In this document: positions 18,067 to 64,000 of the stretch, one piece after another | How the letters are laid out: each line of letters opens with the position of its first letter | Numbering within the stretch: the first letter of the stretch is position 1 | Assembly (NCBI GenBank): GCA_032718475.1 | Contig: JAUCBJ010000550.1 | Location: forward strand, 10,511 to 74,510 | Reading direction: 5' to 3' | Length of the DNA: 64,000 nt | From: Nemertoderma westbladi | Lineage: Eukaryota; Animalia; Xenacoelomorpha | Position numbers and translations under genes: made by a program | The notes under the pieces: model-generated | The model's input: the letters and a program-made list of their open reading frames with translations, nothing else | What the model was told of the DNA's origin: nothing | Databases searched by the model: none

Positions 18067-18254
18067 TATTTAGTGGGGCGTGGGGGTGGGGGGGGGGGGG
18101 GGAATAAAATACTATGGGGGAAGCTCCTTCTACTGAGGGTGTGGAAAATTTAGTAGAATTAAAAACAAGTAGAAAATAGATTATTAACATTTAAAAAGCA
18201 TTGATTTTGCGTCAATCAATTAATTAATACTGCAATAGTTGAATAAGACTCGTA

Positions 18255-34050: not shown

Positions 34051-34489
34051 AATATTTCACAAACTATTACTCAACATGTACGGTGATAATAATTGTCACA
34101 GAAGTAACTGACTCAATCACTTGATCAATCATCTGATCCAATAACTTAGTCCAAATAATCTGACTCCAAAGTACATCTATCAATTATCTATCCAGAATAA
34201 CCTAGTGCAAATACTTGATCCAAACTATCACATCAATCTGTCTACTGGGAAATAACTCTTCACAACATATCTGATCAATCATTGTCACATTATTATCAAT
34301 CTGTCACATGCATAACTACATCTGTCACAGAACTAATCTGATCCAAACTACTGTACGGGTGATAATAATTGTCACAGAAGTAACTCCAATCATTGTCTAC
34401 TGGGCGATAACTACTCTACTCCAAACTACTCTGACTCCAAATACTCTGTCACAGAACTACTCTACTCCATTGCTCTACTGCGAGATCAC

Positions 34490-37400: not shown

Positions 37401-38945
37401 AAACTACTCTACTCCAAACTACTCTACTCCAATCTACTCTACTCCAATCTACTCTACTCCAATATACTCTACTCCAATATACTCTACTCCAAACTACTCT
37501 ACTCCAAACTACTCTACTCCAAACTACTCTACTCCAATCTACTCTACTCCAATCTACTCTACTCCAAACTACTCTACTCCAAACTACTCTACTCCAATCT
37601 ACTCTACTCCAAACTACTCTACTCCAAACTACTCTACTCCAAACTACTCTACTCCAATATACTCTACTCCAATCTACTCTACTCCAATATACTCTACTCC
37701 AAACTACTCTACTCCAAACTACTCTACTCCAAACTACTCTACTCCAAACTACTCTACTCCAAACTACTCTACTCCAAACTACTCTACTCCAAACTACTCT
37801 ACTCCAAACTACTCTACTCCAATCTACTCTACTCCAATCTACTCTACTCCAATCTACTCTACTCCAAACTACTCTACTCCAAACTACTCTACTCCAAACT
37901 ACTCTACTCCAAACTACTCTACTCCAAACTACTCTACTCCAAACTACTCTACTCCAAACTACTCTACTCCAATCTACTCTACTCCAAACTACTCTACTCC
38001 AAACTACTCTACTCCAATCTACTCTACTCCAATCTACTCTACTCCAATCTACTCTACTCCAAACTACTCTACTCCAATCTACTCTACTCCAATCTACTCT
38101 ACTCCAATCTACTCTACTCCAAACTACTCTACTCCAAACTACTCTACTCCAAACTACTCTACTCCAAACTACTCTACTCCAAACTACTCTACTCCTAACT
38201 ACTCTACTCCAAACTACTCTACTCCAAACTACTCTACTCCAAACTACTCTACTCCAAACTACTCTACTCCAAACTACTCTACTCCAATCTACTCTACTCC
38301 AAACTACTCTACTCCAAACTACTCTACTCCAATCTACTCTACTCCAATCTACTCTACTCCAAACTACTCTACTCCAAACTACTCTACTCCAATCTACTCT
38401 ACTCCAATCTACTCTACTCCAATCTACTCTACTCCAAACTACTCTACTCCAATCTACTCTACTCCAAACTACTCTACTCCAAACTACTCTACTCCAAACT
38501 ACTCTACTCCAATCTACTCTACTCCAATCTACTCTACTCCAAACTACTCTACTCCAAACTACTCTACTCCAATCTACTCTACTCCAATCTACTCTACTCC
38601 AAACTACTCTACTCCAAACTACTCTACTCCAATCTACTCTACTCCAATCTACTCTACTCCAATCTACTCTACTCCAAACTACTCTACTCCAAACTACTCT
38701 ACTCCAAACTACTCTACTCCAAACTACTCTACTCCAAACTACTCTACTCCAAACTACTCTACTCCAAACTACTCTACTCCAAACTACTCTACTCCAATCT
38801 ACTCTACTCCAATCTACTCTACTCCAATATACTCTACTCCAAACTACTCTACTCCAAACTACTCTACTCCAAACTACTCTACTCCAAACTACTCTACTCC
38901 AAACTACTCTACTCCAAACTACTCTACTCCAATCTACTATTCTCC
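34490..38945. repeat. 15-bp satellite (~295 copies), ACTCTACTCCAA(T/A)CT
   Basis: Near-perfect array with three unit variants (AATCT, AAACT, AATAT); almost no G on the + strand. Confidence 0.98.
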
Positions 38946-39289
38946 AATCTTAATTGTTTCTATTTTGAACAACTTTTATTATAGGATAGGATCTAGAGAT
39001 CTACTGATTTTAGATATTATTCATGTTTAAGCACTTCCGATTCCCACCATGGTGACAACGCTTGCCATCAGGGTGACAATGATTGTAGAAAAAGGTGGTA
39101 ATATTGGCGGCAATCAGACAAATCAGTTGAATATATTAGTTTATTTAAATCCGCATTAAATAGGGAAACTTCTTAAATAATTCCATTTTCACTTCTATTT
39201 TTCAGAAGTGAAATTATAAAAACGTCATATTATAGCAAGAGCATAATAAATATATAAGAAAGAAATGCTAATATCTACGTATCAAAGTA

Positions 39290-39764
39290 TTAAACCATAG
39301 TATTGAATTCAACGAAGCTATCATCTGAGTTTATCGAAATCCCTCTGTCGAGACGTCCGTAGGCCTCGGCCAGCACGAGGTTGTCGTCATTGTCGTCGAG
39401 AGCCTCGTCGTCTGTTAGCCTGATGTCGTTGGCGCTATCGGCGAGGTCATCCCGACTTCCGAACCGACATGGGATGGTCGTGGCGTTGGTTCCGGCCCGG
39501 TCCGGGAGCACTGGGTACAGGATCGGGGAGTCCGAGGAGAACGGGAAGGCGGAGGTGTACTGGAACCCGTACGGACGGCGAACGAACACCTTGGGGTAGA
39601 GAGAGGCCAGCGTCGGGTTCGGGATATAAGGATCCGTGGTTAATTCATCAACAGTATACTCCTGGATCTCTTCGATAAGGGATATAATGTCTCTAACTAA
39701 GTCGTTAGCGATAAGATAGAGGCAAGGGGAACCTCCATTCATAACGTGTGCACAAGCGACGAAA
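39290..39764 (-). CDS. MTMR10: MTMR10/11/12-type gene, coding exon 2
   Basis: tttcag|T completes WSECYLR-FVACAHVMNGG (3-PAP-domain-like WxxCYLR..GG) in frame with the supplied 150-aa ORF; AATAAA on the minus strand at 38975-38980. Confidence 0.85.
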
Positions 39765-40791
39765 CTGAAAGTAAACGAATATATAATTCTAAATATAATA
39801 CTAAATTTATTTAAGTGAAATTAAATACTCTAATACTAAACACAAATCTATACTGCATTGTTTAATTAAACAACAATGTTCAATTGTGGGTTAACTTTTC
39901 GCTTTTTTTTTTATCGACGCCGTACACTTACACCTACACATTCCCCGGGCTGGTTATTGCTGGATACACATTACAACTTACATGTTGTATTATTTAACAT
40001 TAACAATTAAATCAATTGGATTTGAGCTGATTATTCAACGGCAATAAATAACATTTTAATATGAAAAATAAACATGTTGTTGTACATTGCATTAATTAAC
40101 TCTAATAATTCCAATCCCGGAAATAATAACACATTCGCAATGAAATATTTAAAAATAGGGTTATGTTATTCCTAGAAAAAAATAGTACATTTATTTTTCA
40201 ACACTCCTGTATCTGCCTGATATTTTAATAAGACTTTGTTTAATCCGGTTACGGATATTTAATAGGACAAAATTAAAGGCAACGTTGAAGAAATTGTGAA
40301 GGATTGTATTTCTTTTTGTCAACTCGAGCTGTATATTATTTTAGGGATGATGAGTTTGTGGTGGTTCGTTCATCGACGTCCTTTAATTTGCCTATTTCTA
40401 AATTTTGCACAACGTTAAACACCAAAAATCCTCATTGAAGGGGTTGGTTGCAGGTGTGGTAGGCCTAGGGTAACTGATTCAGGTGATAATACTATATTGA
40501 AAGTTTCTAGCTTAAATAATGCCGTGCCTGTACGTAGATTGATACAAAATTTGGCAACCCTATATTGTATATTCTCTGGAGCAAGACACATTTTTTGCCT
40601 AATTTGAATTAAACTATTGGTTAAAAGTCCAGTTAAAAGTACAGTCCAGTCAGTAGGCAGAACTAAAGTAAGTAGAGAAAATTACAAACCCCATATCAAG
40701 AAAATAAGGTTGACAGTTATTACAGTAGCCCATGTAAAGTATACCAGAGTTTCTGCTGTTATATTTCAGTTTGCCCCCATGTGAAGAATAC

Positions 40792-42009: not shown

Positions 42010-42443
42010 GTTTTCACTAAAACAAAGGTTTCAGAAGGGCTGATTCTAACCAAAACAATAAACGAATAAGTATCTATAAATGGGAGAATCTTTTAGGCAC
42101 GTTAAGCCAAGGAATGCCTATTCATCACCATGGGTGATCTTCTACAGTAAACCCTTCCACTCTGATACACAAGTTGCCTTGGTTCCCATTTATCGACCAC
42201 TGAAGGGTGAAAGCCAAGGTTGGGCTAGGCTTGTAATAAGTATCTATACAGGTTATAAGACGGAAATAAACGCTATAAAACACTTAATTCGGAGAAATTT
42301 GGAAAAACAAATTCTTCATAATAAAATTCCAGTAGAATTTCGACCGAAAAGTGAAAACCTGGTATTCTTCACATGGGCGTAGTTATTTAACCTTAAAATT
42401 AATTGACACACAATTAATAACAAATATCGTAAACTCGACTTAC

Positions 42444-44425
42444 CGTAAGTAGCATTCCGACCAGAGATTAAGGTTATTAATTTCATGTTTTGGAATCAGC
42501 CTTTTTGATTGACATCCATTTGTTAGAGTTGCTGATATGCCGAATAAATCGTTCGGTATGTTGGAGCTGAAACAGTAAGGATTGTAAAACAGCGACTCTC
42601 TAGACGAATTGATATGAATAGGCCAATCCCAAACCGAAGGGTAGTTTATTGGAGCGACGGAGACCCGCTGGTTTGAGCGGGAGGGGCCATTGTAACCCGA
42701 TTGGATGTGGTCCAATGGGGACAGGCCAGGGGGCAGAGTTTGTGATTGGCTGTGGTGCCAGACGCGGTCGCCCGGTGAGTCCCACATAAACTGGTCGAAA
42801 GTTCCCATAGTAGTTGAATCCCATAGAGTAACGAGATAGTAAGAGGAGAACTCGAAACGATGGGGGAACTGGTTAATGAGTTGGTAGACGCAGTCGAGGA
42901 ACAGAAGGAACACTGGGGAACGCTGGTTCTTCGGGTTTGCAGACGTGTCTGGGTTGCTTAGCAACCCCAATCGGGAGAGGAAGGGGTGACCCACTGCGAC
43001 AAACTCGCGTTGTACCAACGACTCAAATCCCAGACGAGTACGGCAGTGCGGGTCGAGTAGGAGTTGGACAAGACAACAGATGACGCAACTGAAATCTCTC
43101 CCGAAACCCTCCCCGTAACCCTCGACAACTATGACATTGACCGCGTCGACGTCCACTATATCTGCGATCCGATTGGATACTTTCAAGCACTTCGAGACGT
43201 GGTGCAGCCACTGCGAGGCCTCGAGAGAGGAACAAAATCGGCGGTCGTTCGACCAGTACTTAGTCGAGGTGCAGATCTCGAGTAGCTGACTGTAGCTAAT
43301 CTGTAGGTCTGCCAGAGAGGGGCACACCTCATCGCCTGCCTCAGTGTCTACAGACCAACGGGAATCCGTTGGGGACTGTCTCTGATCTAATTTGTAGACG
43401 TAAGGATCGGTGTTTCTCTTCTCGTATTGACTCTGAAGTTTGACTCCCACTCTCATAGCAATAAGAAATCTCTCCCAGTCCATTTGAGGCGCTAAACCTA
43501 GTTGAACTAAAACGCTTCGAATAATACTGACATCGTTGGAATGGGTGTAAGACCAAAAAGGAGGACGTTTTGTAATAAAGGCACCAATAAATCTCGAAAA
43601 TTCCGGCCCCTTGAATCCATTCGGAGGATAGCTGGGAACAGCAAAATATTCCGGCATAGTTACGAACTTTCTGCAGCCCAAGTTGTAATGGGTTACTTGA
43701 TATTTTTTGACGTTTAGGCGAGATAATTCCATCTTCCAATCTTCCTCTTTACTGTAAGTCGGACGCAACACATCGAAATATCGCGCTGTTGTACCAACCT
43801 CGAAGCAATACAAATCCTCACGCCTACTCGGATGTATCTGGCTGAGTAGAGCCAAAGTAAAACACTTCGCTAAATTACTATCCGTGTTTTGGAAACCAAA
43901 CAGCAACACACGAAAATCCTTGCAAATTATTTTTAATTTCTGGATTCCGTGTTTTATTCGACTGTTTCTTGTCAACAGTTTTATCTTTTTCGTGGAAACT
44001 TTGTAAATAGAGTCAAAGCACGTTAAAGCAATGTCATTTTTTCCAAGGAATTTATTATGGCTATGAACTGTTTCAGTGAGCTCAATTGACACAAAAGAGA
44101 GTCTGTAATTTGTAAGTATTAATTTCCCCATGACTCCTGCTGAGTCATTCCTACCAATTATGTATTTAACGCATTTCTTTAAGGAACTAATTATCACTTC
44201 TCCAGGAAATAGTTCCATCGATGTATCAACGTCTAGAGTAGACACTGGCGATGTAGAGTTAGAACGTTTCATGAAACGGGAACCAATTACATTATCAGAC
44301 CGAGTACTGCGGTCTACCAACGAGCTGGAACTAATGAAGAACCTTGGGGCGTGAGGACCATCGATAGAGGATGTGTGGCTCCGCAAACGATTAAACATCT
44401 TCTCAACATTTTTAACTTTATCCAT
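42444..44425 (-). CDS. MTMR10: Myotubularin-related pseudophosphatase (MTMR10/11/12 type), coding exon 1; nested in ITPR intron 9 on the same strand
   Basis: PH-GRAM-like N-terminus (LFPGEVII, GKLILTNYRLSF, ICKDFRVLLFGF); myotubularin motifs SQWLHHV, LVQLLLDPHCRTRLGFESLVQREFVAVGHPF, SPVFLLFLDCVYQLINQFPHRFEFS; catalytic CX5R replaced by VVEGYGEGFGRDFSC; donor CG|gtaagt. The specific orthologue (10, 11 or 12) cannot be resolved. Confidence 0.9.
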
Positions 44426-44856
44426 CTTCGCGGAAATAATACATATATTCAAAAAATATCCCGAAGACAATAAATAATAATCATGTTTTAAATAAAACTG
44501 ATACCAAACACTAATATCACAGTAATTACTGTACTATTTCCCTGTTGCTATGATACTACATAATATTAAACAACAAAGGAACACCGAAGATATATAATTA
44601 CATCCCATCATAATCATATGTCTAGCCTAGAAAAGATTAAAAACACAATGAGAATAATACGAATTGAGTTTGGCAGAGATTAACAATATACAGTAAGTTT
44701 TAAAATTTAATACATAAATTAATCACCAAACACAGAGGACGGGACGTTTTATATAATTTAGTTCGATATTAAAATTACTCTCTGTAACACTGAGTATTTT
44801 ATATTAATTGTGTTTCCAATACCAATAATGAATGAATTACACAAGCAAGACACAAC

Positions 44857-46880: not shown

Positions 46881-49231
46881 ATTTTCTTATTGGATATTAT
46901 TCCGTGTACATACTGCAGATACTTTAGATCGAGTGTCACCGGCATCCGCAGAAACAATGCCTCACCCTCCTGATAGAGATTAATTTATGTACAGTAATGT
47001 TATTGGCCTGATGAGATATGTATTAAGAAAATAAACCGCACGAAATATTAATTATGTTGCAAAGACGTCCAAAACAAAGACCAAAGACCCCCTAACGCTC
47101 TTTTGGACTCTCGCGTTAGGTAAAACGCGACTTGACCTCTTTGTTTTGTACTCACCCTCCAAAATGTTATGTTGTACAATAATAATAGTCAGAATTTGTT
47201 AAGTTTCTATTTCATTGACTGTTTGTTTATCTTATTGAACTCCCTGATTTTCTAATTCCCTTCTTAAATCGACTTCGTACCGCGTAGAAACAGTCATGTT
47301 AATTGAGCAACTGGCCTAGAAGTAATATTCCAACTAGTATTGTCGCAATAAAGTATAGTGCATTACCAGATTTGCTAACGGCAGCAGGACCAACACAGGA
47401 CTACTGTAGAACAAATCTGTCACTGTTGCGGTGGCAGTGTCCTTCTAATCTGAAAGGTAGTGTCTGCAGAGTGATAGTCGGCACAGGTTCCATATAGAGA
47501 ATTCCCTCGCGTTTCTCAAAATGACCATCGAATTTTGTAACAAATGTCTCGTAGAATCGGCATCGCAGCAGTAAACTTATTATGGATACCTGAGGTGAAG
47601 CAGAGGCAGCAACACTGAATCGTAAACTTTACAAAAAATTGTTACGATTGTTAGTTTACTTTATATGGATATTATCTTTACGAGTCTCCCTTTATGTGTC
47701 GGTCCACATATCGAGACAGGAGTGATGGTAGTCGCAGTGGACGTAACATTTATGGGACGCCGGCAAAATACTGTAGAATAGAATTTGAGCTCCAATACCA
47801 CATACTACTAGGATCGGCATGCTGCATATTGCAGCTGCATTTTTAAGAATGCTGTGCCGGCTTGTCAACAAAATTGCACCGCCAATACCACATGGTGAGA
47901 TTCAGCATTCATGATAAAAAAAAAGATGCGATGTTGGTAGACCAGTCTTGTTCTAGAATTAACCCGAATGCCGGTACACCTGGAATCCCTCCAAACCACG
48001 CACGCGTTTGGACTTTACTTGGTCATATCAGAGTATATATATACCCTGTAAAGTTATGAGATATGTGAGACCCATCAAGGGACCTCGTGTCTTCTGCCGT
48101 AAAAGCCTAGCAGATGTTGCCAAATAGCAGCACAGGCTCTACATTAAGTGAATTAACGGCACCAGGAATACATTTCGTTCAGAGAAGGTTTCATTCCATG
48201 TGATTCCCATTTCCTTGATAGTTTATGGTTTGTTGTCCTTTCGTTCGTACTCGGAGGTCTTCAACGGATCTCCGAATCCTTGATCTAGATATCAGTAGCC
48301 AGCAGGTCGGTAACCTGCTAGGGGGAATCAAAGTTAGAGTTCGATTTTGGTCTTTGTGGCATTTACAAATTGGACGCTGCCTGTTCCAGAATGTGGAGTA
48401 AGCTTTCGGCACAAGATTTAACTGAAATTTAGAATTAAAGGCCTCTCACATGTAAAGTAAGATTTCCTCTACTTCTACTAACAGAGGCTGGTTGTAATTA
48501 CACACCATCTATATTATGTTGTTCAAGAGATATTGGCAGCAAATAGTTCACCAGAGTAATGGAGCTTGGAGCATGGACCTTGTTTTGGCAAATTGTTGTT
48601 GTCAATGTGAATTCCTTCAAGAATTATGCTGGGGAAGAATAAGTATCAATAAAGTTATTGCTATAAGATACTTTCTGTTTCATAACAAGAATACGATAAT
48701 TTAATGTTTCCTATATTTAGTTGAACAATAGCTATAATTAACGAACCAATCATCATATTCATCTGAAATTTGGTAGGGGTTACCTACTGTATGTACATCG
48801 CTTAATTTGAAATTATACATACAGTCGGACATTCTATAGTGATTCGGTTCAGACGGTTCTATAATTGTACCCCTTTACTAAAGTTAATCTATACTTCTTG
48901 CTGCGCGAAGGCCCCATGGACGTGTTTCCCTGTATCATATTTTGTCACATGTATCATATTTTGTCACTTGAATTATATTTTGTCACTTGTATCTGATTAT
49001 GTGATGTAAATTATAGAGATGATAATATCTGTTTTTTAATATTTTAGATTCTTACTTCTTCAATAGGCTGTTATTTACAAACAAACATTCCACACAAATA
49101 ATCAATTTCAAGACGTTTATTTCTCTGTGAACTAACTCGCATGAGAGACTATTTTAGCGAAATCTCGTTTCGAGACATAGGTAAATTCAAGTATCAGATG
49201 AGAATTAACCATCGAGCATCACACCTCTGTA

Positions 49232-49975
49232 ATGAGCCGTGTCTTGTCATTCGGCATTGGCATTACTACTCTCTTCGTTGGCTTGGTACATGGCGTTAAT
49301 GTTACCTGCCGCCATGGACGCCTGCAGACCATGTTATCCTCCAACCATGACAATGTGGCAGATTTGAACTGGGATTGGCGCGACACTGGGGGATCGTTAG
49401 TAGCAGGTTTAGGATCTGTCTCGGATGAGCAATGCCCAGTTTGTCATATGTGGGAGTCAATGTCAGCAACCTTCTTGAAGCAATACCCTGAGTTAAAGGT
49501 TATGGCCGGCGCGAGATACGAAACCTGCGCATACGGTGGTGGTTGCGAAGCCCAATCCGAACACCCGTGCACCAACTTCACAGAGTTTATGCAGGAGTTT
49601 TTAGACGCGGAATACGGCACAGGAGTAACAGTGTCGATTATAGAGAGCTTTTGCATGGAAATATGCTGCGAAGGGGCGGAAGTCTGCAACTCAATTGACC
49701 ATCCCGAATTCCATTTACCCGCTTATATAAACAGCGACGGGACCTACAACTGGGAACATCCAGTCTGGCAACTTGATCTGGATGGAAACCCGATACCTTA
49801 CAATAGAGCGGGACCTGAAGATTCAACAACAACAACAACAACAACTACTACTACTGATCCTCCTACGACCGCAACACCGGGCAGTTCTACATTGGTTGAA
49901 AGCTTCGCTAACAAAATATTTGGAAGTTTCAATGTTTTTCTTGTTGCTTTTATGGGTTTATTGTTTTTCCATTGA
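49232..49975 (+). CDS. Secreted/GPI-anchored Cys-rich protein, Ly6/uPAR (three-finger)-like; antisense in ITPR intron 8
   Basis: Signal peptide, 10 Cys ending in CCEGAEVCN (LU-type CCx(n)CN), Thr-rich stalk, hydrophobic C-terminus with no cytoplasmic tail. Confidence 0.78.
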   Translation: MSRVLSFGIGITTLFVGLVHGVNVTCRHGRLQTMLSSNHDNVADLNWDWRDTGGSLVAGLGSVSDEQCPVCHMWESMSATFLKQYPELKVMAGARYETCAYGGGCEAQSEHPCTNFTEFMQEFLDAEYGTGVTVSIIESFCMEICCEGAEVCNSIDHPEFHLPAYINSDGTYNWEHPVWQLDLDGNPIPYNRAGPEDSTTTTTTTTTTDPPTTATPGSSTLVESFANKIFGSFNVFLVAFMGLLFFH

Positions 49976-52846: not shown

Positions 52847-53039
52847 ATCCGGTGTTAGGGACCCCGGCAACAAACGCAACGAGGTCACTGAGTAGATTAT
52901 TGGTAGACTTTCGATCGCTCTGGTTCATCTGGCCGGTTTCCAACTTTATTGCGAGAACGGATAGAAGACTAGAGGCATCATTGGCGAAATCTAGATCGCG
53001 TACCTCCACTGGGTCCACCGGGACAATAGCAAAGGCTTC
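52847..53039 (-). CDS. ITPR: ITPR exon 8
   Basis: [23 protein letters not shown]...[11 protein letters not shown]; donor gtaagt. Confidence 0.93.
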
Positions 53040-53379
53040 CTACAGAACAAAATCATAGAAACAAAAACAGTTCCAGGGCCTTCGAGCTATAGAAATGTAA
53101 GACACCAACAGATCAAATCTACAATAATGCCGTACCAGTAATAGTGGGGCTCTCGAAGTGTGTGTAGTGTGAATCAAAATACTATTTTAATTGTTTCCGA
53201 CAGGTATGCTTTCAGACCCACCACACACTGACACACATCCATTTGCACATCGACCCAAGTATAATTAAAAACATACCCAATTACGTAAGCTGCTTAATAT
53301 AAAATCATCTACGACATTCTACAGTTATGAAATAAATTTGAATTGCAATGTATGTAGTCAGTTTAAATTGAGATCAAAC

Positions 53380-53532
53380 CTTGTCTTCCTTCAGAGGCGC
53401 ACCTCCAACTTTCAGGCGTTCGGGTTTATCTTCTGCAGAATCGAGAGCTAACTGAGTGGAATGTATCCAAGTGTTGGAACACAAATGGCGAAGTCGCACA
53501 AAACTAGACCGAGGGACTGTCGCAGACAGAAT
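53380..53532 (-). CDS. ITPR: ITPR exon 7
   Basis: [26 protein letters not shown]...[12 protein letters not shown]|gtttga. Confidence 0.9.
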
Positions 53533-53614
53533 CTGGAAATTCATTACTATTTATAATTATTATTTTTCAAGCTAAAAACACGGGAAAACATGGGATAATA
53601 TATCGCGAAGGCCC

Positions 53615-54482
53615 TTCTCTATAGGAGGCAATCCGAGGGCTCCTCTCTGCCCGAGGAAACCCGAAGATTCCTCTCTACCGGAAGCATCCCGAGGGATCCT
53701 CTCTACCGGAGGCAACACGGTGGCTCCTCTCTACCGGAGGCAACCCGAGGGATCATCTCTAACGCAGGCAACACGGAGGCTCCTCTCTACCGGAGGCAAA
53801 CAAAAGGCTCCTCTCTACCGGAGGCAACCCGAAGGCTCATCTCTACCGGACCGGAGGCAACCCGAAGGCTCCTCTCTACCGGAGGAAACCCGAGGGATCC
53901 TCTCTACCGGAGGCAACACGGAGGCTCCTCTCTACCGGAGGCAAACAAAAGGCTCCTCTCTACCGGAGGCAACCCGAAGGCTCCTCTCTACCGGACCGGA
54001 GGCAACCCGAAGGCTCCTCTCTACCGGAGGTAACCCGAGGGATCCTCTCTACCGGAGGCAACACGGAGGCTCCTCTCTACCGGAGGCAACTCTAAGGCTC
54101 CTCTCTATAGGAGGTAATCCGAGGGCACCTCTCTGCCCGGGGCAACCCGAAGATTCCTCTCTATCGGAGGCACCCGAAGGCTCCTCTCTACCGGAGGTAA
54201 CCCAAGGGATCCTCTCTACCGCAGGCAACCCGAATGCTCCTCTCTACCGGACCGAAGGCAACCCGAAGGCTCCTCTCTACCGGACCGGAGGCAACCCGAA
54301 GGCTCCTCTCTACCGGAGGCAACCCGAGGGATCCTCTCTACCGCAGGTAACCCGAAGGCTCCTCTCTACCGGACCGGAGGCAACCCGAAGGCTCCTCTCT
54401 ACCGGAGGCAACCCGAGGGATCCTCTCTACCGCAGGCAACCCAAAGGCTCCTCTCTACCGGACCGGAGGCAACCCGAAGGCT
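53615..54482. repeat. GC-rich ~28-bp minisatellite (~30 copies) in ITPR intron 6
   Basis: GAAGGCTCCTCTCTACCGGAGGCAACCC, with occasional ACCGG duplication. Confidence 0.94.
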
Positions 54483-54509
54483 CAAAGCTCCCTCTCCAAT
54501 ATTACATAC

Positions 54510-54687
54510 CTGCAACGTAGTTGGCTCCAGTTCAAATATCGTTGCCAGATCATTGCCATGGGGAACAGGTATGAGGTAATAGAGTTTGGTATCGACTGAG
54601 CCTCTGAGAGCGGTTCTCATACTGTCCTCTGATGCATCAGTGTCCACCCCAGCTGCTAGATACTGCCCGCTTGCAAGGTGTTTAAAC
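54510..54687 (-). CDS. ITPR: ITPR exon 6
   Basis: tag|G FKHLASGQYLAA...LIPVPHGNDLATIFELEPTTLQ|gtatgt. Confidence 0.92.
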
Positions 54688-54771
54688 CTATAAAATGCAA
54701 GAATATCGAAAACATTACAGAGACCATTACAGAAACCATTGCAAAAACCATTACAGACTGTCTGTGTTTAA

Positions 54772-55520
54772 GGGGGGGTACACCATTTTCGGACAACTCT
54801 TCGATTTATCACTCTCAGCGTTTCAAAATTGTTTGGTTTTGGCTAAAATTTGGCATATAGGTGCCTAAGATGCTATTCTACATGACGGGTAAGAAATTTT
54901 TTTTTTTTCGCTATTTAATATTAGTTAATACTAGTTAACAATAAAAAACTTGGTTGCGCTTAAAACCCTAAGGCTCTTACAGTTTTGAATCTAATCACAT
55001 GAAAGTTTTTTTATATGATAGATCAAAGATGGGGCAACATAACTATCAGGCGAAATTTTGTTAAAATAATTCTGCACCGCTAGGTGGCGCTGCAAATTTA
55101 TGCTAATTATTAGGTTTGTTATAAATAGTATTAAATTTTATTAACAAAAAATTTCGAAAAGTTGTCTGATACTTTTATGCAGGGTGGCTATCTAGACACC
55201 CACAGAAAGCTTCAGACTAATTACTCAAAAATTGTAGAAATTGTAGGGTTTTGATGTTGACAATTTCATAAAAAAATATTTGGAGATAATCGACCTTTCA
55301 TTATACATAGTAATAGTAATTTCAATAGGATTCCCTAAATGGAAATTTATATAACTTGAAAACTAAAAGAGCAATTAAATAGCGGTTTTCAGATTTGGAA
55401 ACACCATGCACCAAACACATTATAATAGACCAATAAAGAAATTTCGACATATTCTGAACCAAAATGGTGTACCCCCCCCCCCCTTCGACATATTCTGAAA
55501 CAAAATGGTGTACCCCCCCC
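54772..55520. mobile_element. Non-autonomous DNA transposon (MITE) with TTAA target-site duplication
   Basis: ttaa|GGGGGGGTACACCATTTT ... AAAATGGTGTACCCCCCCC|ttaa; right end partly duplicated at ~55445-55483. Purine termini plus TTAA suggest Kolobok-like (inference). Confidence 0.82.
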
Positions 55521-55583
55521 TTAAGGAAATCTTCCACCTCGCACAATCTTTACACGTTAAACTACCCCACCCCAAACGACTAG

Positions 55584-58500
55584 ACCTGTACAAGTTATTG
55601 TCCCAATGCGACACAACTGTACCTGTACAAACTGTACCAATGTCCACAACTGTACCTGTACAAACTGTCCCAATGTCCCACAACTGTACCTGTACAAACT
55701 GTCCCAATGTCCCACAACTGTACCTGTACAAACTGTCCCAATGTTCCACAACTTTACCTCTACAAACTGTCCCAATGTTCCACAACTGTACATGTACAAA
55801 CTGTCCCAATGTCCTACAACTGTACCTGTACAAACTATCCCAATGTCCAACAACTGTACTTGTAGAAACTGTCCCAATGTCCCACAAATGTACCTGTACA
55901 AACTGTCGTCCCAATGTCCCACAACTGTACCTGTACAAACTGTCCCAATGTCCCACAACTGTACTTGTAGAAACTGTCCCAATGTCCCACAAATGTACCT
56001 GATGTCCCACAAATGTACCTGTACAAACTGTCCCAATGTCCCACAACTGTACCTGTACAAACTGTCCCAATGTCCCACAACTGTACTTGTAGAAACTGTC
56101 CCAATGTCCCACAAATGTACCTGTAGAAACTGTCCCAATGTCCCACAACTGTACCTGTACAAACTATCCCAATGTCCAACAACTGTACTTGTAGAAACTG
56201 TCCCAATGTCCCACAAATGTACCTGTACAAACTGTCCCAATGTCCCACAACTGTACCTGTACAAACTGTCCCAATGTCCCACAACTGTACTTGTAGAAAC
56301 TGTCCCAATGTCCCACAAATGTACCTGTACAAACTGTCCCAATGTCCCACAACTGTACTTGTAGAAACTGTCCCAATGTCCCACAAATGTACCTGTACAA
56401 GCTGTCCCAATGTCCCACAACTGTATCTGTACAAACTGTCCCGATGTCCTACAACTGTACCTGTAAAAACTGTTCCAATGTCCCACAACTGCACTTGTAC
56501 AAACTGTCCCAATGTCCCACAACTGTACCTGTACAAGCTGTCTCACTGTCCCGCAACTGTACCTGTACAAACTGTCCCAATGTCCCAAAACTGTACTTGT
56601 ACAAACTGTCCCAATGTCCCAAAACTGTACTTGTACAAACTGTCCCAATGTCCCACAACTGTAATTGTACAAACTGTCCCAATACCACACAACTGTAGAT
56701 GTACAAACTGTCCCAATGTCCCACAACTGTACCTATACAAACTGTCCCAATGTCCCACAACTGTACTTGTACAAACTGTGCCAATGTCCACAACTGTACT
56801 TGTACAAACTGTCCCAATGTCCCACAACTGAACCTGTACAAACTTTGCAAATGTCCACAACTGTACTTGTACAAACTGTCCCAATGTCCCACAACTGTAC
56901 CTGTACAAACTGTCCCAATGTCCCACAACTGTACCTGTACAAACTGTCCCAATGTCCCACAACTGTACCTGTACAAACTGTCCCAATGTCCCACAACTGC
57001 ACCTGTACAAACTGTCCTAATGTCCCACAACTGTACCTGTACAAACTGTCCCAATGTCCCACAACTGTACCTGTACAAACTGTACCAATGTCCCACAACT
57101 GTACCTGTACAAACTGTCCCAATGTCCCACAACTGTACCTGTACAAACTGTCCCAATGTCCCACAACTGTACTTGTACATATTGCCCCAATGTCCCACAA
57201 CTGTACCTGTACAAACTGTCCTAATGTCCCACAACTGTACCTGTACAAACTGTCCCAATGTCCCACAACTGTACTTGTACATATTGCCCCAATGTCCCAC
57301 AACTGTACCTGTACAAACTGTCCTAATGTCCCACAACTCTACCACCACAAACTGTCCCAATGTCCCACAACTGTACCTGTACAAACTGTCCCAATGTCAC
57401 ACAACTGTACTTGTACAAACTGTCAGAATGTCCCACAACTGTACCTGCACAAACTGTCCCAATGTCCCCCCACAACTGTACCTGTACAAACTGTCCTAAT
57501 GTCCCAGAACTCTACCACCACAAACTGTCCCAATGTCCCACAACTGTACCTGTACAAACTATCCCAATGTCCGAAAACTGTACTTGTACAAACTGTCCCA
57601 ATGTCCCATAAATGTACCTGTACAAACTGTCCCAATGTCCCACAACTGTACCTGTACAAACTGTCCCAATGTTCCACAACTGTACCTCTACAAACTGTCC
57701 CAATGTCCCACAACTGTACCTCTACAAACTGTCCCAATGTCCCACAACTGTACTTGTACAAATTGTCCCAATGTCCCACAACTGTACCTGTACAAACTGT
57801 CCCAATGTCCCACAACTGTACTTGTAGAAACTGTCCCAATGTTCCACAACTGTACCTCTACAAACTGTCCCAATGTTTCACAACTGTACCTCTACAAACT
57901 GTCCCAATGTCCCACAACTGTACTTGTACAAATTGTCCCAATGTCCCACAACTGTACCTGTAAAAACTGTCCCAATGTCCCACAACTGTACTTGTAGAAA
58001 CTGTCCCAATGTCCCACAAATGTACCTGTAGAAACTGTCCCAATGTCTCACAACTGTATCTGTACAAACTGCCCCGATGTCCTACAACTGTACCTGTACA
58101 AACTGTTCCAATGTCCCACAACTGTACCTGTACAAACTGTCCCAATGTCCCAGAACTGTACTTGTAGAAACTGTCCCAATGTCCCACAAATGTACCTGTA
58201 CAAGCTGTCCCAATGTCCCACAACAGTATCTGTACAAACTGTCCCGATGTCCTACAACTGTACCTGTAAAAACTGTTCCAATGTCCCACAACTGCACCTG
58301 AATAAAGTGTCCCAATGTCCCACAACTGTACCTGTACAAACAATCCTAATGTCCCACAACTGTACCTGTACAAACTGTCCCAATGTCCTACAACTGTACC
58401 TGTACAAACTGTCCCAATGTCCCACAACTGTACCTGTACAAACTGTCCCAATGTTCCACAACTGTACCTCTACAAACTGTCCCAATGTCCCACAACTGTA

Positions 58501-59355
58501 CTTGTACAAACTGACCCAATGTCCCACAACTGTACCTGTACAAACTGTCCCAATGTCCCACAACTGTACTTGTAGAAACTGTCCCAATGTCCCACAGCTG
58601 TACCTGTACATACTGTCCCAATGTCCCACAACTGTACCTGTACAAACTGTCCCAATGTCCTACAACTGTACCTGTACAAACTGTCCCAATGTCCCACAAC
58701 TGTACCTGTACAAACTGTCCCAATGTGCCACAACTGTACTTGTACAAACTGTCCCAATGCCACACAACTGTTCCTGTACAAACTGTCCCAATACCACACA
58801 ACTGTACCTGCACAAACTGCCCCAATGTCCCACAACTGTACCTGCACAAACTAAACTGTCCTAATGTCCCACAACTGTACCTGCACAAACTGTCCCAATG
58901 CCACACAATTGTACCTGCACAAACTGCCCCAATGTCCCACAACTGTACCTGCACAAACTAAACTGTCCTAATATCCCACAACTGTACTTGTACAAACTGT
59001 CCCAATGCCACACAACTGTTCCTGTACAAACTGTCCCAATACCACACAACTGTACCTGCACAAACTGCCCCAAAGTCCCACAACTGTACCTGTACAAACT
59101 AAACTGTCCTAATATCCCACAACTGTACTTGCACAAACTGTCCCAATACCACACAACTGTACCTGCACAAACTGCCCCAATGTCCCACAACTGTACCTGC
59201 ACAAACTGCCCCAATGTCCCACAACTGTACCTGCACAAACTGCCCCAATGTCCCACAACTGTACCTGCACAAACTAAACTGTCCTAATGTCCCACAACTG
59301 TACCTGCACAAACTGTCCCAATGTCCCACAACTGTACCTGTACAAACTGTCCCAG
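55584..59355. repeat. 34-bp satellite (~110 copies) derived from the ITPR exon 5/donor junction
   Basis: Minus-strand unit GGGACATTGGGACAGTTTGTACAG|GTACAGTTGT; the exon 5 end GGGCACTGGGACAGTTTGTACAG|gtacagttgt is the first unit. Confidence 0.96.
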
Positions 59356-59542
59356 TGCCCAGCTCCGCTCCGCAAAGGATCGTGTTTAACAACTTCCACC
59401 TCCCACAATGCTTTGCTACTGGTTGCTGATGTTGCAGAGGCTCTGGCCGTAACTCTTAGGAAGACGTAATTCTGCTTCTTGTAGGAGTCTGCTGTTAGAA
59501 ACTTTTCCTGCTCAGCGTGGAACAATCTAACAACATCGCCAC
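59338..59542 (-). CDS. ITPR: ITPR exon 5 (IP3-binding core, MIR)
   Basis: [17 protein letters not shown]...[43 protein letters not shown]; donor AG|gtacag. Confidence 0.93.
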
Positions 59543-59851
59543 CTAATATTTAGAATTAAGGGACTCCATTAAGTATATAACCAACATTATTGCTACAAAG
59601 ACTAAAAATACCGCTCAATGAACATTAAGTACATCTATATGAAATAAATTCGATCTAAATAAACATCATAATATGATTATATGATCAGCTTAACCCAAAT
59701 TCAAATAAACTCTATTTAATCTGATCAGCTGGAGAGAAAAAAGGGAAATCAAACAATATTAATAAAACATAATCAAACAATAGTGATGCTAATCTATTAA
59801 CTTTATAAATATATTTATATTCTATATAAAATTATAGGAGAAACGCAGATA

Positions 59852-60080
59852 AGTGGGGAAACTGGACGCAATAAAAATCCATCCATCTCCAGGGGAAACT
59901 GGACGCAAATAACAGTTGATTGCTCTAAAAAATAAAACTGTAACCTGTTCTATTGTGTTTAGTTTATTGTTTTGGTTAAAATAACGTGCCATTGTAACCT
60001 GCTCCTTTCCCTAAATTGAGAATTTAACATTGAGGCGGGATATTAATTCGCCGTGATGGGATTTGCGTCCAGTCCCCCCC
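59852..60080. mobile_element. Small MITE-like element
   Basis: GGGGAAACTGGACGCAA (twice) versus TTGCGTCCAGTCCCC; related sequence at ~62330-62500. Confidence 0.55.
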
Positions 60081-60179
60081 CCCCCCCCCCGTCTCGAAAA
60101 ACGCTATTAAAAAAAGAGTCCACCCCCATTTAATTTTCCAATATAGGGATAATCTGTGTATAAAAAGCACAATAATTAC

Positions 60180-60413
60180 CTTTAACAACGCTATCGATAT
60201 TCTCTGTTACATCGATAAACAAGTTGATCTTCCACGAGGTGTTACACTTCACCGAGTTAACCTCATGGCACCCCGGAGCATCTGGAAGAACCAGAGATGA
60301 TGCGTGCAGGGGTTGACCGGCTCTCATTGGTTGAAGGGTCACCTTGTCCCCGCAGACTACGCTGTCACCTGGACCTCGGAGTTTATAGAATGGAAGAACC
60401 TGAAACCAGGATC
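60180..60413 (-). CDS. ITPR: ITPR exon 4
   Basis: [26 protein letters not shown]...[16 protein letters not shown]...VVK; tag acceptor, gtaatt donor. Confidence 0.93.
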
Positions 60414-60687
60414 CTAAAAGTAAAAGGATACCGGAATCGAAAATCAATTAAAAGGATAACAAGACCTAAAAACTAAACCATACAATTACAGTTCCTTCAC
60501 TGAACTGAAGTTTTTTCTTACGTATTCTGGTTAGCCATTTCTTGCTGAAAATAAATGTGTTCAAACTCAAACTAAATATAAAAATAAAGCTTCTTCAAAG
60601 GGAAAAATATTCCCAAAAATGATAAATTTGTCATCAATAATGTAAATACTGTACAAATAAAAATAATAATAAATTGAATGGAATGGA

Positions 60688-60965
60688 AGAAATTTTAGGC
60701 CCAATTAGCCACTAGCCAGGGAATTCCTGTTCACCTCCACTGCGGACGGGTGAGATATTCTGCAGTAAACCCTTCCACTCTGATTCCCAAGTTGTCTTGG
60801 TGCCCAACCATTAATATACATGATAGCTTGGGTTGGGCAAACCTGCAGCACTTAAAGCACTGCGCCCAGTATTGCATAGTCTAGGGATGAAACGAGGGCC
60901 TAGGAATCGAAAGAAGTGACTCCTGATCAGAAGCCCAAGAATGTTACCACTAGACTAAGCAACTA
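60688..60965 (-). mobile_element. tRNA-derived SINE (family 1 copy)
   Basis: Reverse-complement similarity to 28838-29086 (CAGTAAACCCTTCCACTCTG, CCCAAGTTG, ACCACTAGAC). Confidence 0.68.
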
Positions 60966-61172
60966 CATGTTCTTGTGGTAATATACATTAATAAACAAAA
61001 AACAAACATAAACAAACAATTAGTATAATTAATTATACAAGTCCACGGATGTAACACTATTATTTACACTACACACACATCCTTTGGATAAATCACACAG
61101 GAAAATATAAACATAACTGTATCCATAACACTATACATATTATTTTATAGACCTGGCCTATAGATACCGTAC

Positions 61173-61332
61173 CTTCGTTGCCATCTGGGTCTAAGTTAAC
61201 ACGCATGGCGTTCTTCTCTAAATGAGCTGGGAGTCGTTTATTCACAGTCAGGTATTTGTTACTCTTTACGTGGAGAAGTTGAACACACGACCCGTAAACA
61301 ACATTGGAACCGAGTTGTTTACGTATTTCCGT
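61173..61332 (-). CDS. ITPR: ITPR exon 3
   Basis: [54 protein letters not shown]; cag acceptor, gtacgg donor. Confidence 0.93.
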
Positions 61333-62094
61333 CTGCAAAACAAGCGGTTATAGCTTCCCTTCCACCAAATACCATATCATTGAAAAAATTTAATAGTTTT
61401 AAAAACAGAAGTTCTAATTTACGTTATTACGTTAAATCCAAATCGTAACACCACATGAAACGTTATATTAAACAATTATTATGGTTTGAATAGATTTGTA
61501 TGTTTCAAGATAATCCAACAAGCTCAATTATCGATATTGAACTTCATTTCTTAATGCAATTAAAATTCATTTTTAATTTCATTAAAGAATATCTAAGAAT
61601 ACTTTATAAATTGGGAAAACCAGCTTTTAATTGTTACTGAAACTATTATCGAAAAAAAGTGCGAATAGCTGAATGGTGAATAGGCTTATTACATAATTAA
61701 TTCCTTAGTGACTGCGTTTAGTGGACAAAAGCCGGTCAGACACGTTCGTGGGGCCTTCGTGCAGCACGAAGTGAGCAAAGCCTTTAGCATATATGGGCAC
61801 CCTGTTGTTTGCCGTTAGTCAGAAGTCAACACAATACTTGTCCTCATCTTGTGCCTCGTTGCGTTCGTTCGTTTTGACCAAACTTCAGATTCTTTCTAAA
61901 CTTTTGACGGACTACATACGTGCCAAGTTTCGTTTAATTTCATCGAGGAATAACCGAGTTATTAGCGATCAAAAATTTACGACGACAGACGACGACGACA
62001 ACAGACAACTCGCCAATGGCACCCATATGATAAGGCTTAGTTCACTTCGTGTCTCGCCCCACAGTAAGTAAATTAATGTTCATTGTTCAAATAC

Positions 62095-62209
62095 CTCGTT
62101 TTGGTTTTTCTCCAGCTCTGCTGCGTGGTGGAGTTTCTTCAACAACACGATATCTGGGGCGCCAGTGTAGGACCGAGATGCTTTCCAGAACTGCTTATGG
62201 GCCGTATAT
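62095..62209 (-). CDS. ITPR: ITPR exon 2
   Basis: cag|[11 protein letters not shown]...[17 protein letters not shown]|gtattt. Confidence 0.92.
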
Positions 62210-62791
62210 CTGTGGCGAACGACAATTATTTCAATTACATAGTGTGAATAGCTGTATTAATTCACTTAGTTGAGGTGGGGGAAGGGGGATAAATAGCTGT
62301 AGTTAATTCACTTAGTTGTGGTGGGGGAAGGGGGGTAATCAGCTGATTGATTACGAGTAAAATGGGACTGTAACTTGTGTTGTTATTGACCTTCGTTTAT
62401 TGTTTTGGATAGAATAACATGTCACTGTAACCTGCTTCTCTCCCTTAATTGATAATTAACGTTGTATTCGCCTTGATGGGATTTGCATCATACTCCCCCC
62501 CCCCCCCCCCCTGTATCTGTTAGGACTGCAAGTAAATGATTGCACCTTGTGTACAGGCTTCTTACGGAAGTTCCAGGCGTATGTTTCAATGGGACGAAAG
62601 TGTGAATAGGAAAAGGGACAGGTAACACGTTTTTCTAACCAAAACAATAAACGGGAGTCAATACCACACAGGTTACAATTAAATTCTTGGTAGGACGAAG
62701 CATCACCCCAATGGCCACTTTCAGACTTTAGTTCCATCCGTACCTAGCGCTACCGTACAATGTGCTGTATAACATGTATGCAGTTACGAAC

Positions 62792-62988
62792 CTGTTCAGA
62801 GGACAAATCTTGTAGAGACAATCGCGAAACTTGCTAGGTGGGTTTATTAGGTCACCGTGTTCTGGGTCAACCACGCAACGTTCATCAACCAATCCGAGCG
62901 TAGATAGGAACCCAGATACGGGACCCTCGGCGTATATGGAAACTATATCGCCGATCCTAAGAATTCTAGAATCTGATAGAACATCCAT
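62792..62988 (-). CDS. ITPR: ITPR coding exon 1 (suppressor domain start)
   Basis: [40 protein letters not shown]...[13 protein letters not shown]; donor AG|gttcgt. Confidence 0.93.
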
Positions 62989-64000
62989 AGTTGCAGAATC
63001 AATCAACGGATTTAAACAGCCAATAAACACAACTCACAGCAACAAAATATAATCACAACCAATCATGTTATTATTGACGGAAATATTAGTTTTCAAAGCA
63101 TTATTGTAAATACAAATTAATTAGACTCCAGAATTTATGAGTTTTGTAACTTTGTACTTATGAATAATCACTACGTATAACACCAAAGTCACAAACGAGT
63201 TTCTAACTTTCAACTAAATGATAAAACACATAGACGTTCACATATAAACATTCAACTTTCAAAATGCACTAGTCCTATATTGTATTTTTACATGAAAAAT
63301 GAAAGCTGTCATTTCTAGCATTGACTACCAATTTAGAAATAACAATTATTTCTCAACTGAATATAGAACAACCCTTATATAGGTGGTCTATTGTTTATGA
63401 GCCGAAAATCAAATGTTTGTGAGTGAACTGGGACGTAATTATTTGAAAGTTGATAGTTAGTTGTTGAAAGTTGTTTGACTGTTGAAAGTTGAATGATAAG
63501 ACCCTGGTCATGTGTGACCCGGCCTTATCAGAAGTATGGGGGGGGGGGGGGGGGGGGGTGTGTTCTCGTTCTTTATGCGGAACAAGTAAAGGCCTACCTG
63601 TAAAACAATATAGTAGGTTACATATACCGGTATTAGTATTACTTTGATTAATACATAAAAATAATTTTATATTAAATTTTTATGACAACAGAAAGATTAA
63701 GATTACTAATAGCAACGTAATATAAACTATACGATTAAAATACGACGAGATTAAAAATTACAGAACACGGTTTATTAGTCTTAACAGAATTAAAGTCATG
63801 TGGGTAATTGATATTATAGACTACATAGACACCCCAATTCAACAATGAATGGGTATAGTGAAGTGCAGAGAGAGCATTAACTAACATGCGTGGAGGTTGA
63901 CAATGGATTTACAACCTGTACCACACTTTACACATTTCATACAAAAACAATCATTTGTTTAATATCTATTTAATATTTAGATTGAGTAGAGCATCTTGGG

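What the first reader, a model, noticed from the sequence alone, without database searches (positions are those of the whole stretch)
55584..59360. A 3.8-kb satellite built from ITPR's own exon-5/5'-splice-site junction
Seen: the last ~23 nt of exon 5 (GGGCACTGGGACAGTTTGTACAG, encoding the conserved GHWDSLYR) plus the donor (gtacagttgt) form the first unit of a 34-bp array of ~110 copies running into intron 5. Most units keep TTTGTACAG|GTACAG, an exact copy of the authentic donor preceded by an acceptor-like YAG. The next decoy donor (+34 nt) frameshifts, and read-through meets an in-frame stop at 59274-59276, so only the first donor yields intact ITPR. Inference: either the spliceosome picks the first of dozens of identical donors by position, or decoy use tunes ITPR dosage through NMD, or the CAG|GT units act as tandem recursive-splicing ratchet points. 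It also resembles the tandem-duplication-at-AGGT model of intron growth; the spliced junction itself reads AG|GT.
Basis: partly seen in the sequence, partly recalled or inferred. Interest (0 to 1): 0.85.

Follow-up and report, generated by a model that had tools for sequence, protein, structure and literature searches.

The report
Splice-donor minisatellite in IP3-receptor intron
In an animal's IP3-receptor gene, the last 23 bases of one exon plus its splice signal stand in 110 tandem copies running into the next intron; this is a real but likely harmless, larger-than-published example of a repeat type already known from lancelets and several human genes, with the first signal likely the one used.

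Summary
The array is real: 110 copies of a 34-bp unit (59360-55576, minus strand) starting in ITPR exon 5 and spanning its donor at 59337. The unit matches the exon end at 21 of 23 bases and encodes the conserved GHW-SL-R motif, so it came from the junction. DNA contigs of a second sample carry it, and their depth needs no other locus. One claim is overstated: only 37 of 110 sites carry the exact TTTGTACAG|GTACAG, and 53 carry CAG|GTACAG. All 109 decoy donors would give a premature stop. The arrangement is published: human F7, CBS, IFI6, LMNB2 and PDGF minisatellites, and amphioxus 'mirages'. In F7 minigenes only the most upstream donor was used. The AGGT intron-birth model fails here, because the unit holds no exon-6 sequence and the acceptor lies ~890 nt past the array. 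Recursive splicing is unlikely because the array's acceptors are weak. Regulated decay is not excluded; donor use in RNA was not tested. Unchecked scan notes report the same arrangement in many other genes of this genome, some far larger, and in other genomes. Verdict: new member of a known kind, low interest.

The parts
59338..59542 (-). ITPR exon 5 (205 nt, MIR domain); its last 23 nt form the exonic part of the first repeat unit
   Evidence: tblastn; junction search; Pfam PF02815 E=1.7e-21
59329..59340 (-). Authentic 5' splice site CAG|GTACAG, first intron base 59337; 6 of 9 matches to the donor consensus, strong on the exon side and weak at +4 to +6
55576..59360 (-). 34-bp minisatellite, 110 donor-register copies (1 real, 109 decoys); unit = 24 nt exon-side + 10 nt intron-side; variant 33, 37, 39 and 54-nt units; 5' block of about 15 units shares a -4 A>G variant
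59274..59276 (-). First in-frame stop (TAG) on read-through, made by the 5-nt insertion of the 39-nt unit variant (units 2, 7, 11, 14)
55525..55575 (-). Short unique intron remnant after the array
   Evidence: sequence
54768..55524 (.). About 750-bp element with 23-nt terminal inverted repeats, each ending in TTAA; likely a non-autonomous DNA transposon inserted in intron 5
   Evidence: inverted arms 54767-54789 / 55502-55524, 91% complementary; transposon label is inference
54688..54767 (-). 3' end of intron 5 with an ordinary T-rich acceptor, last intron base 54688
54510..54687 (-). ITPR exon 6, begins GT (FKHLASG...)

Best explanation
This is a minisatellite of 110 copies of the ITPR exon-5 end plus splice donor, which likely grew in place by slippage and unequal exchange and is likely tolerated because the spliceosome would use the first donor. 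Shown: the unit is the junction, the array starts in the exon and grows only into the intron, the real acceptor is untouched, and every later donor would give a premature stop. Inferred: the seed duplication used short internal repeats (GTACAG and GGGACA each occur twice in the unit); growth into the intron left the reading frame intact, so selection did not remove it; the first donor wins by its upstream position, as shown for human F7; any leak to donors 2-3, as reported for CBS and IFI6, would make stop-containing messages that are likely degraded. The array is then a passenger with at most a small cost in output.
For: Exon-to-array polarity: the motif is ancient in ITPRs (119 of 120 homologues) and the unit matches it 21 of 23 nt; both differences are synonymous in exon frame (chance about 0.02-0.09). 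Tandem turnover: units 31-35 recur as 84-88, and variants cluster in blocks. Present in a second sample: the unique contig stops at 59325 in 3 of 3 runs that cover the gene, exactly where the window's array predicts the first branching 31-mer. Summed depth over the junction is 23-33% of what this one array could give (112,181 and 220,150 against about 483,000 and 665,000), while a dispersed element in intron 4 reaches about 30,000 times single copy. No contig holding the unit ran on into unlike DNA (17 laid in X1, 69 in X2). No copy elsewhere in the window. Six large arrays cover 25.5% of the window, so the genome makes arrays readily. No sign of selection at donors: +1/+2 are as conserved as other columns, and the most variable column, -1 (71 of 98 G), may stem from few events. 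Precedent: F7 minigenes with 1-12 units used only the most upstream donor (PMC1557585); amphioxus mirages did not disturb splicing (PMC3087553). The ITPR frame is intact across the exons found, including a 1564-codon open last frame.
Against: Donor use in RNA is untested, so first-donor use rests on analogy with mammalian cells and amphioxus. The real donor is of modest strength (5.9 against 2.0-11.4 for 15 other donors of this gene) and donors 2-6 have the same 9-mer; nine CAG|GTACAT copies score higher (8.2). Published arrays have at most about 25 pseudo-sites, so 109 is outside the tested range. CBS and IFI6 do use two pseudo-sites (PMC1557585 introduction). An unchecked scan note on a GALNS array in this genome reports substantial splicing from a variant copy. 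The loose-end test is weak: the array's known 3' flank did not appear as a loose end either, so a few copies elsewhere are not excluded.
Confidence: 0.76

Rival explanations
1. The array acts as a dosage dial: a sizeable share of transcripts use decoy donors, gain a premature stop and are degraded, so copy number or variant order sets ITPR output.
For: All 109 decoys give a premature stop. Donors 2-6 are identical to the real one over -3..+6. The real donor is of modest strength. CBS and IFI6 leak to two pseudo-sites (PMC1557585). Unchecked note e1-10614089 reports decoy use in another gene of this genome.
Against: A stop this early is common in the array (21 of 110 start points), so it needs no selection. 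No excess conservation of decoy GT or CAG; 27 units end in A instead of G at -1, which lowers the donor score to about 0.8. In F7, unit number from 1 to 12 did not change donor choice. Leak alone would not show regulation.
Confidence: 0.12
2. The YAG|GT units are recursive-splicing ratchet points that remove intron 5 in steps.
For: 68 of 110 sites read YAG|GT. Array AG sites score above 76% of 761 background intronic AGs, and the best reaches 2.4, inside the true range.
Against: Median acceptor score -0.4 is at or below the weakest of 18 true acceptors; pyrimidine share 0.47 against 0.65, G share 0.29 against 0.12 (small model from this one gene). Fly recursive sites have unusually strong 3' motifs and sit in very long introns (PMC6110457 passages); this intron is 4,650 nt. 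The consensus unit has another AG 10 nt upstream of the site. One-unit steps of 34 nt are below usual minimum intron size (recalled).
Confidence: 0.04
3. Intron 5 was created by this duplication, by the tandem-duplication-at-AGGT route.
For: The spliced junction reads AG|GT, and the route is an accepted way to gain introns (PMC3443670 passages).
Against: The model needs the duplicated piece to be exonic on both sides of AGGT and the last copy to supply the acceptor. Here intron start and exon-6 start share 3 of 10 and 13 of 34 bases, intron end and exon-5 end 6 of 10 and 10 of 34, within the range of 15 other ITPR introns (1-6 of 10). The acceptor is a separate T-rich site ~890 nt downstream. 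AG|GT also occurs at 2 of those 15 junctions.
Confidence: 0.03
4. The array is an assembly artefact, or a dispersed satellite that landed at or converted the exon end.
For: Only short-read contigs were seen; none spans the array, so the number 110 rests on the window's assembly. No whole genome could be searched.
Against: 65 distinct unit types with block structure; same break point and about 100-fold depth in a second sample; the unit encodes the ancient ITPR motif in frame.
Confidence: 0.03

Closest known systems
Human F7 intron 7 37-bp VNTR, with IFI6 (6-16; 25 pseudo-sites), CBS intron 13 (15-20 units), LMNB2 (10-15 x 100 bp) and PDGF intron 4 (16-18 x 81 bp) minisatellites (Borensztajn et al. 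2006, PMC1557585; read parts 1-3 of 6: abstract, introduction, most results)
   Same: First monomer spans the exon/intron boundary; the real donor is followed by look-alike donors at a fixed ~35-nt spacing; G triplets in the unit.
   Different: 110 copies rather than 5-25; 23 exonic nt rather than 4 (F7); about half the decoys have drifted from the real 9-mer; non-mammalian host; donor use and length polymorphism not shown here.
Amphioxus 'mirage' minisatellites (Adh3, globins BflGb6 and BflGb9, troponin C, PGBD5; PMC3087553 and PMC3902484, passages only)
   Same: Invertebrate tandem duplications of an exon/intron boundary that keep splice signals; turnover in blocks; edge units diverge from the interior.
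   Different: Reported globin mirages have 3-6 units of 150-160 bp (Adh3 units 10-72 bp); this one has 110 of 34 bp. Splicing there was checked by RT-PCR, here it was not. The host here is unidentified (61% or less identity to the 120 best ITPR hits).
Intron gain by tandem genomic duplication at AGGT (PMC3443670, passages)
   Same: Tandem duplication around an AG|GT.
   Different: There the duplicated piece is exonic and yields both splice sites; here it is exon end plus an existing intron start, and the acceptor is separate.
Recursive splice sites in long fly introns (PMC6110457, passages)
   Same: Juxtaposed AG|GT inside an intron.
   Different: Those have very strong 3' motifs in very long introns; these have weak, G-rich 3' context in a 4.65-kb intron.

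Membership tests
Junction-spanning minisatellite (F7/CBS type; 'mirage') | First monomer spans an authentic exon/intron boundary | tested here: met
   21 of 23 exonic nt plus 10 intronic nt; donor 59337 best by homology
Junction-spanning minisatellite (F7/CBS type; 'mirage') | Head-to-tail copies repeat the splice signal inside the intron | tested here: met
   110 sites; GT in 103, CAG|GTACAG in 53
Junction-spanning minisatellite (F7/CBS type; 'mirage') | Locus-specific, not a dispersed repeat | tested here: inconclusive
   No copy elsewhere in the window; depth and loose ends fit one locus but the test is insensitive and no whole genome is held
Junction-spanning minisatellite (F7/CBS type; 'mirage') | Normal mRNA made mainly from the first donor | not testable with these tools
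   No RNA evidence obtained; inferred from intact ITPR frame and precedent
Junction-spanning minisatellite (F7/CBS type; 'mirage') | Copy number varies between alleles | tested here: inconclusive
   Array present in a second sample, but short-read contigs give no length
Intron born by tandem duplication at AGGT | Intron starts with a copy of the downstream exon start and ends with a copy of the upstream exon end | tested here: not met
   3 of 10 and 6 of 10 identities, within baseline of 15 other introns; 13 and 10 of 34
Recursive splice sites | Juxtaposed YAG|GT | tested here: met
   68 of 110 sites
Recursive splice sites | Strong 3' splice-site motif upstream of the AG | tested here: not met
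   Median -0.4 (78 sites) against -0.3 to 9.0 for 18 true acceptors; small single-gene model
Recursive splice sites | Splicing intermediates or lariats at the site | not testable with these tools
   Needs nascent RNA
Regulated unproductive splicing (AS-NMD) | Alternative donor gives a premature stop | tested here: met
   109 of 109 decoys
Regulated unproductive splicing (AS-NMD) | Measurable, regulated use and conservation across species | not testable with these tools
   No RNA and no related species' locus obtained

The most novel reading that the evidence does not exclude
This animal has a genome-wide process that seeds and amplifies tandem arrays at splice junctions, and the ITPR array is one working example in which 109 stop-generating decoy donors divert part of the transcripts to decay, so that array length becomes a heritable dial on calcium-channel dosage. 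The set of such arrays would be a natural test bed for how the spliceosome picks one donor among hundreds.
Probability: 0.1. Interest if true: 0.6.

Novelty: new member of a known kind. Interest (0 to 1): 0.2.

Why it matters
On its own, little: the arrangement and its usual outcome are published. It extends the known kind to an ITPR gene and to four or more times the copy number given in the papers read, which makes it a usable natural test of whether first-donor choice holds with about 100 competitors outside mammals. The more interesting question lies at genome level: unchecked scan notes suggest many genes of this animal carry such arrays, and whether junctions are favoured seeds can only be settled with the whole genome.

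Tried and rejected
No whole genome is held for this window, so the unit could not be searched genome-wide. Sequencing-run search with the large last exon: 6 runs listed, 3 hold the stretch (2 samples, one possibly the window's source); no RNA holder listed. Runs X6, X4 and X5 laid 0 contigs; this is no proof of absence. The two laid stretches (59280-61400, 59280-59640) held only the first 2.3 units, so the array's length and 3' end in other samples stay open; a high-copy element swamped the loose-end table. A 30-nt unit pattern found 0 matches in metagenome contigs, which says little for an animal. Rfam on 53000-63500: 0 matches. Scan notes near this place and by unit sequence: nothing. Selection on the early stop: rejected (21 of 110). 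Selection against decoys: not shown; -1 is the most variable of 34 columns, but copies are not independent. The 28-bp array after exon 6 as a second junction-derived repeat: rejected (score 16, like background). Whether the intron position is ancestral was not tested. Junction models: rows 14-16 of 19 were uncertain; 15 donors and 18 acceptors went into the scoring. Paper searches with no hit: (the last for an IP3-receptor intron minisatellite); two searches gave one paper each, seen in the listing only and not used. The library lacks most subscription papers, so the original CBS, IFI6 and Adh3 papers were seen only as cited; no supplements were opened.

Full report
Observation. On the minus strand the window holds an ITPR (IP3-receptor) gene: tblastn with named homologues finds about 20 exons from 62985 down to 7124, and Pfam gives MIR, RIH and Ion_trans domains. 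Exon 5 is 59542-59338 and exon 6 starts at 54687; among GT/GC-AG pairs that keep the frame, donor 59337 with acceptor 54688 scores best against homologues and gives [20 protein letters not shown] finds a 34-bp array at 55599-59361 with 110 copies. Splitting it by register gives 110 donor-position sites, the first being the real donor. Of the 109 units between donors, 98 are 34 nt, four 39, three 37, three 33 and one 54; the 34-nt units are 94.7% identical to the consensus on average. The exon's last 23 nt match the consensus at 21.

The exact TTTGTACAG|GTACAG stands at 37 of 110 sites, not most. CAG|GTACAG stands at 53, YAG|GT at 68, AG|GT at 74 and GT at 103. The nearest decoys (2-6) keep the 9-mer but carry a change at -4. 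The conserved motif is GHWNSL(F/Y)R: 119 of 120 homologues match it within four changes, D occurs in 6 and the exact form of this gene in 1. The frame claims hold: donor 2 gives a stop 3 nt into exon 6, read-through stops at 59274-59276, and all 109 decoys give a stop before the end of exon 6.

Direction of origin. The unit encodes, in frame, a motif shared by ITPRs across animals, so the array came from the exon and not the reverse. The two differences between exon and consensus are both synonymous in the exon frame (chance 0.02 for any change, 0.09 for transitions). This weakly suggests that the array keeps an older exon allele; internal copying of the twice-present GGGACA could also explain it. 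The unit holds short internal repeats (GTACAG and GGGACA twice each), which would favour a first slippage (inference). Variants sit in blocks: a -4 change in 12 of the first 15 units, the 39-nt form only in units 2-14, and units 31-35 recur as 84-88. That is ordinary tandem turnover.

Is it real and local? No genome is held. Public DNA contigs from two samples hold the gene (X1 may be the window's source, X2 and X3 are one other sample with its own SNPs). In all three runs the unique contig over exon 5 stops at 59325, the place where the window's array predicts the first branching 31-mer. Depth over the first units peaks at about 141 and 222 times the unique depth in X1 and X2. The tool warns that summed contig depth is no copy number, so I simulated it: the window's array alone could give about 483,000 and 665,000 depth-bases, and 112,181 and 220,150 were seen. 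No extra locus is needed. A dispersed element in intron 4 gives about 30,000-fold depth in the same runs, which shows what abundance elsewhere looks like. None of the laid contigs (17 in X1, 69 in X2) ran on into unlike DNA, and all three loose ends continue in unit sequence, including the stop-bearing 39-nt variant in X2. Against this, the array's own 3' flank did not show up as a loose end, so a few other copies could be missed, and no contig spans the array, so its length rests on the window's assembly.

Anatomy of intron 5. It is 4,650 nt: the array (to 55576), about 50 nt unique, a ~750-bp TTAA-flanked element with inverted ends, then 80 nt with a normal T-rich acceptor. Without array and element about 145 nt remain; 12 of 15 other ITPR introns measured are 273-977 nt. 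So a short intron existed first and was expanded twice (inference). Six large arrays cover 25.5% of the window; only this one matches a junction among 36 exon edges tested.

How it most likely works. The array grows on the intron side only, so the first donor still gives intact ITPR. Human F7 has the same layout, and in minigenes only the most upstream functional donor was used, whatever the number of units (1-12) or the G triplets; competition appeared only with perfect-consensus pseudo-sites (PMC1557585, parts 1-3 of 6 read). That paper lists IFI6 and CBS as also using the two nearest pseudo-sites and LMNB2 and PDGF as using only the real one. Amphioxus 'mirages' in Adh3, globins, troponin C and PGBD5 are invertebrate cases reported not to disturb splicing (passages of PMC3087553 and PMC3902484). 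I put 0.76 on a tolerated passenger with at most slight leak that is likely degraded. This step is inferred, not shown: I obtained no RNA evidence.

Rivals. Dosage control through decay (0.12): every decoy makes a stop and the real donor is of modest strength (5.9 against 2.0-11.4 for 15 other donors), but nothing marks selection. A stop within 20 codons follows 21 of 110 start points, the GT is about as conserved as other columns, and 27 units carry -1 A, which nearly abolishes the donor score. Recursive splicing (0.04): 78 array AG sites score a median of -0.4, at the floor of 18 true acceptors (-0.3 to 9.0) though above 76% of background AGs; fly recursive sites have unusually strong 3' motifs and lie in very long introns (PMC6110457 passages). 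Intron birth at AGGT (0.03): the model needs exonic sequence on both sides of the duplicated AGGT (PMC3443670 passages); here intron start and exon-6 start share 3 of 10 bases, intron end and exon-5 end 6 of 10, both within the 1-6 seen at 15 other introns. Artefact or dispersed satellite (0.03): see above.

Novelty. This is a new member of a known kind. A search for an IP3-receptor intron minisatellite found no paper (open-access library only). The copy number exceeds the 5-25 of the human cases as cited. Earlier notes of this scan (unchecked) describe the same arrangement in other genes of this genome (GALNS, tensin, a nuclear receptor, a glutamate receptor, CstF-77, MEMO1, WDR24, DNAJC13, an acceptor form in TFG), some with up to about 2,100 copies, and in other genomes; most report the first donor in the RNA they saw, and one reports use of a variant copy. 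They led me to the mirage papers, which I then read in passage. If those notes hold, the open question is whether this lineage seeds arrays at junctions more often than chance, which needs a whole-genome census. The ITPR array alone scores 0.2.

Noticed in passing
window 53606-54483 (-): A 28-bp array (about 30 copies) begins 27 nt after the exon-6 donor and fills most of intron 6; it does not resemble the exon end. Two consecutive introns thus start with an array.
   Followed up: partly
window 59855-60100: A ~200-250-bp element with 17-19-nt inverted ends in intron 4 draws summed contig depth of 0.5-1.2 million against 10-25 for unique DNA, so a very high-copy dispersed repeat, likely a miniature transposon. 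A second high-depth spot lies at 60700-60841.
   Followed up: partly
window 54768-55524: TTAA-flanked element with terminal inverted repeats in intron 5; one end carries a 41-bp tandem duplication. Without it and the array, intron 5 would be about 145 nt.
   Followed up: partly
window 42440-44533 (-): Intronless myotubularin-related gene (PF06602, E=6e-50) nested in ITPR intron 9 on the same strand.
   Followed up: partly
window 18243-19904 (+): Intronless otopetrin-family gene (PF03189, E=8e-42) nested antisense in ITPR intron 13, followed by a 5.8-kb 23-bp array at 20170-25938.
   Followed up: partly
window 49202-49975 (+) and 39290-39820 (-): Two open frames in ITPR introns 8 and 9 (257 and 176 codons) with no Pfam match at E 0.01; the first looks like a secreted, membrane-anchored protein with a Thr-rich stalk (by eye).
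   Followed up: partly
window 34411-38950: A 4.5-kb, 15-bp array with almost no G on the plus strand, open as a 1531-codon YSTP(I/N) repeat frame; likely non-coding.
   Followed up: no
window 7124-11791 (-): The last ~1550 codons of ITPR lie in one open frame, while the first ~1100 codons are split by about 19 introns: a strong 3' bias of intron absence, as reverse-transcript-mediated loss would give (inference).
   Followed up: no
window 15702 (-): The best-scoring donor of intron 14 is a GC donor (AAG|GCTAGT); unverified.
   Followed up: no
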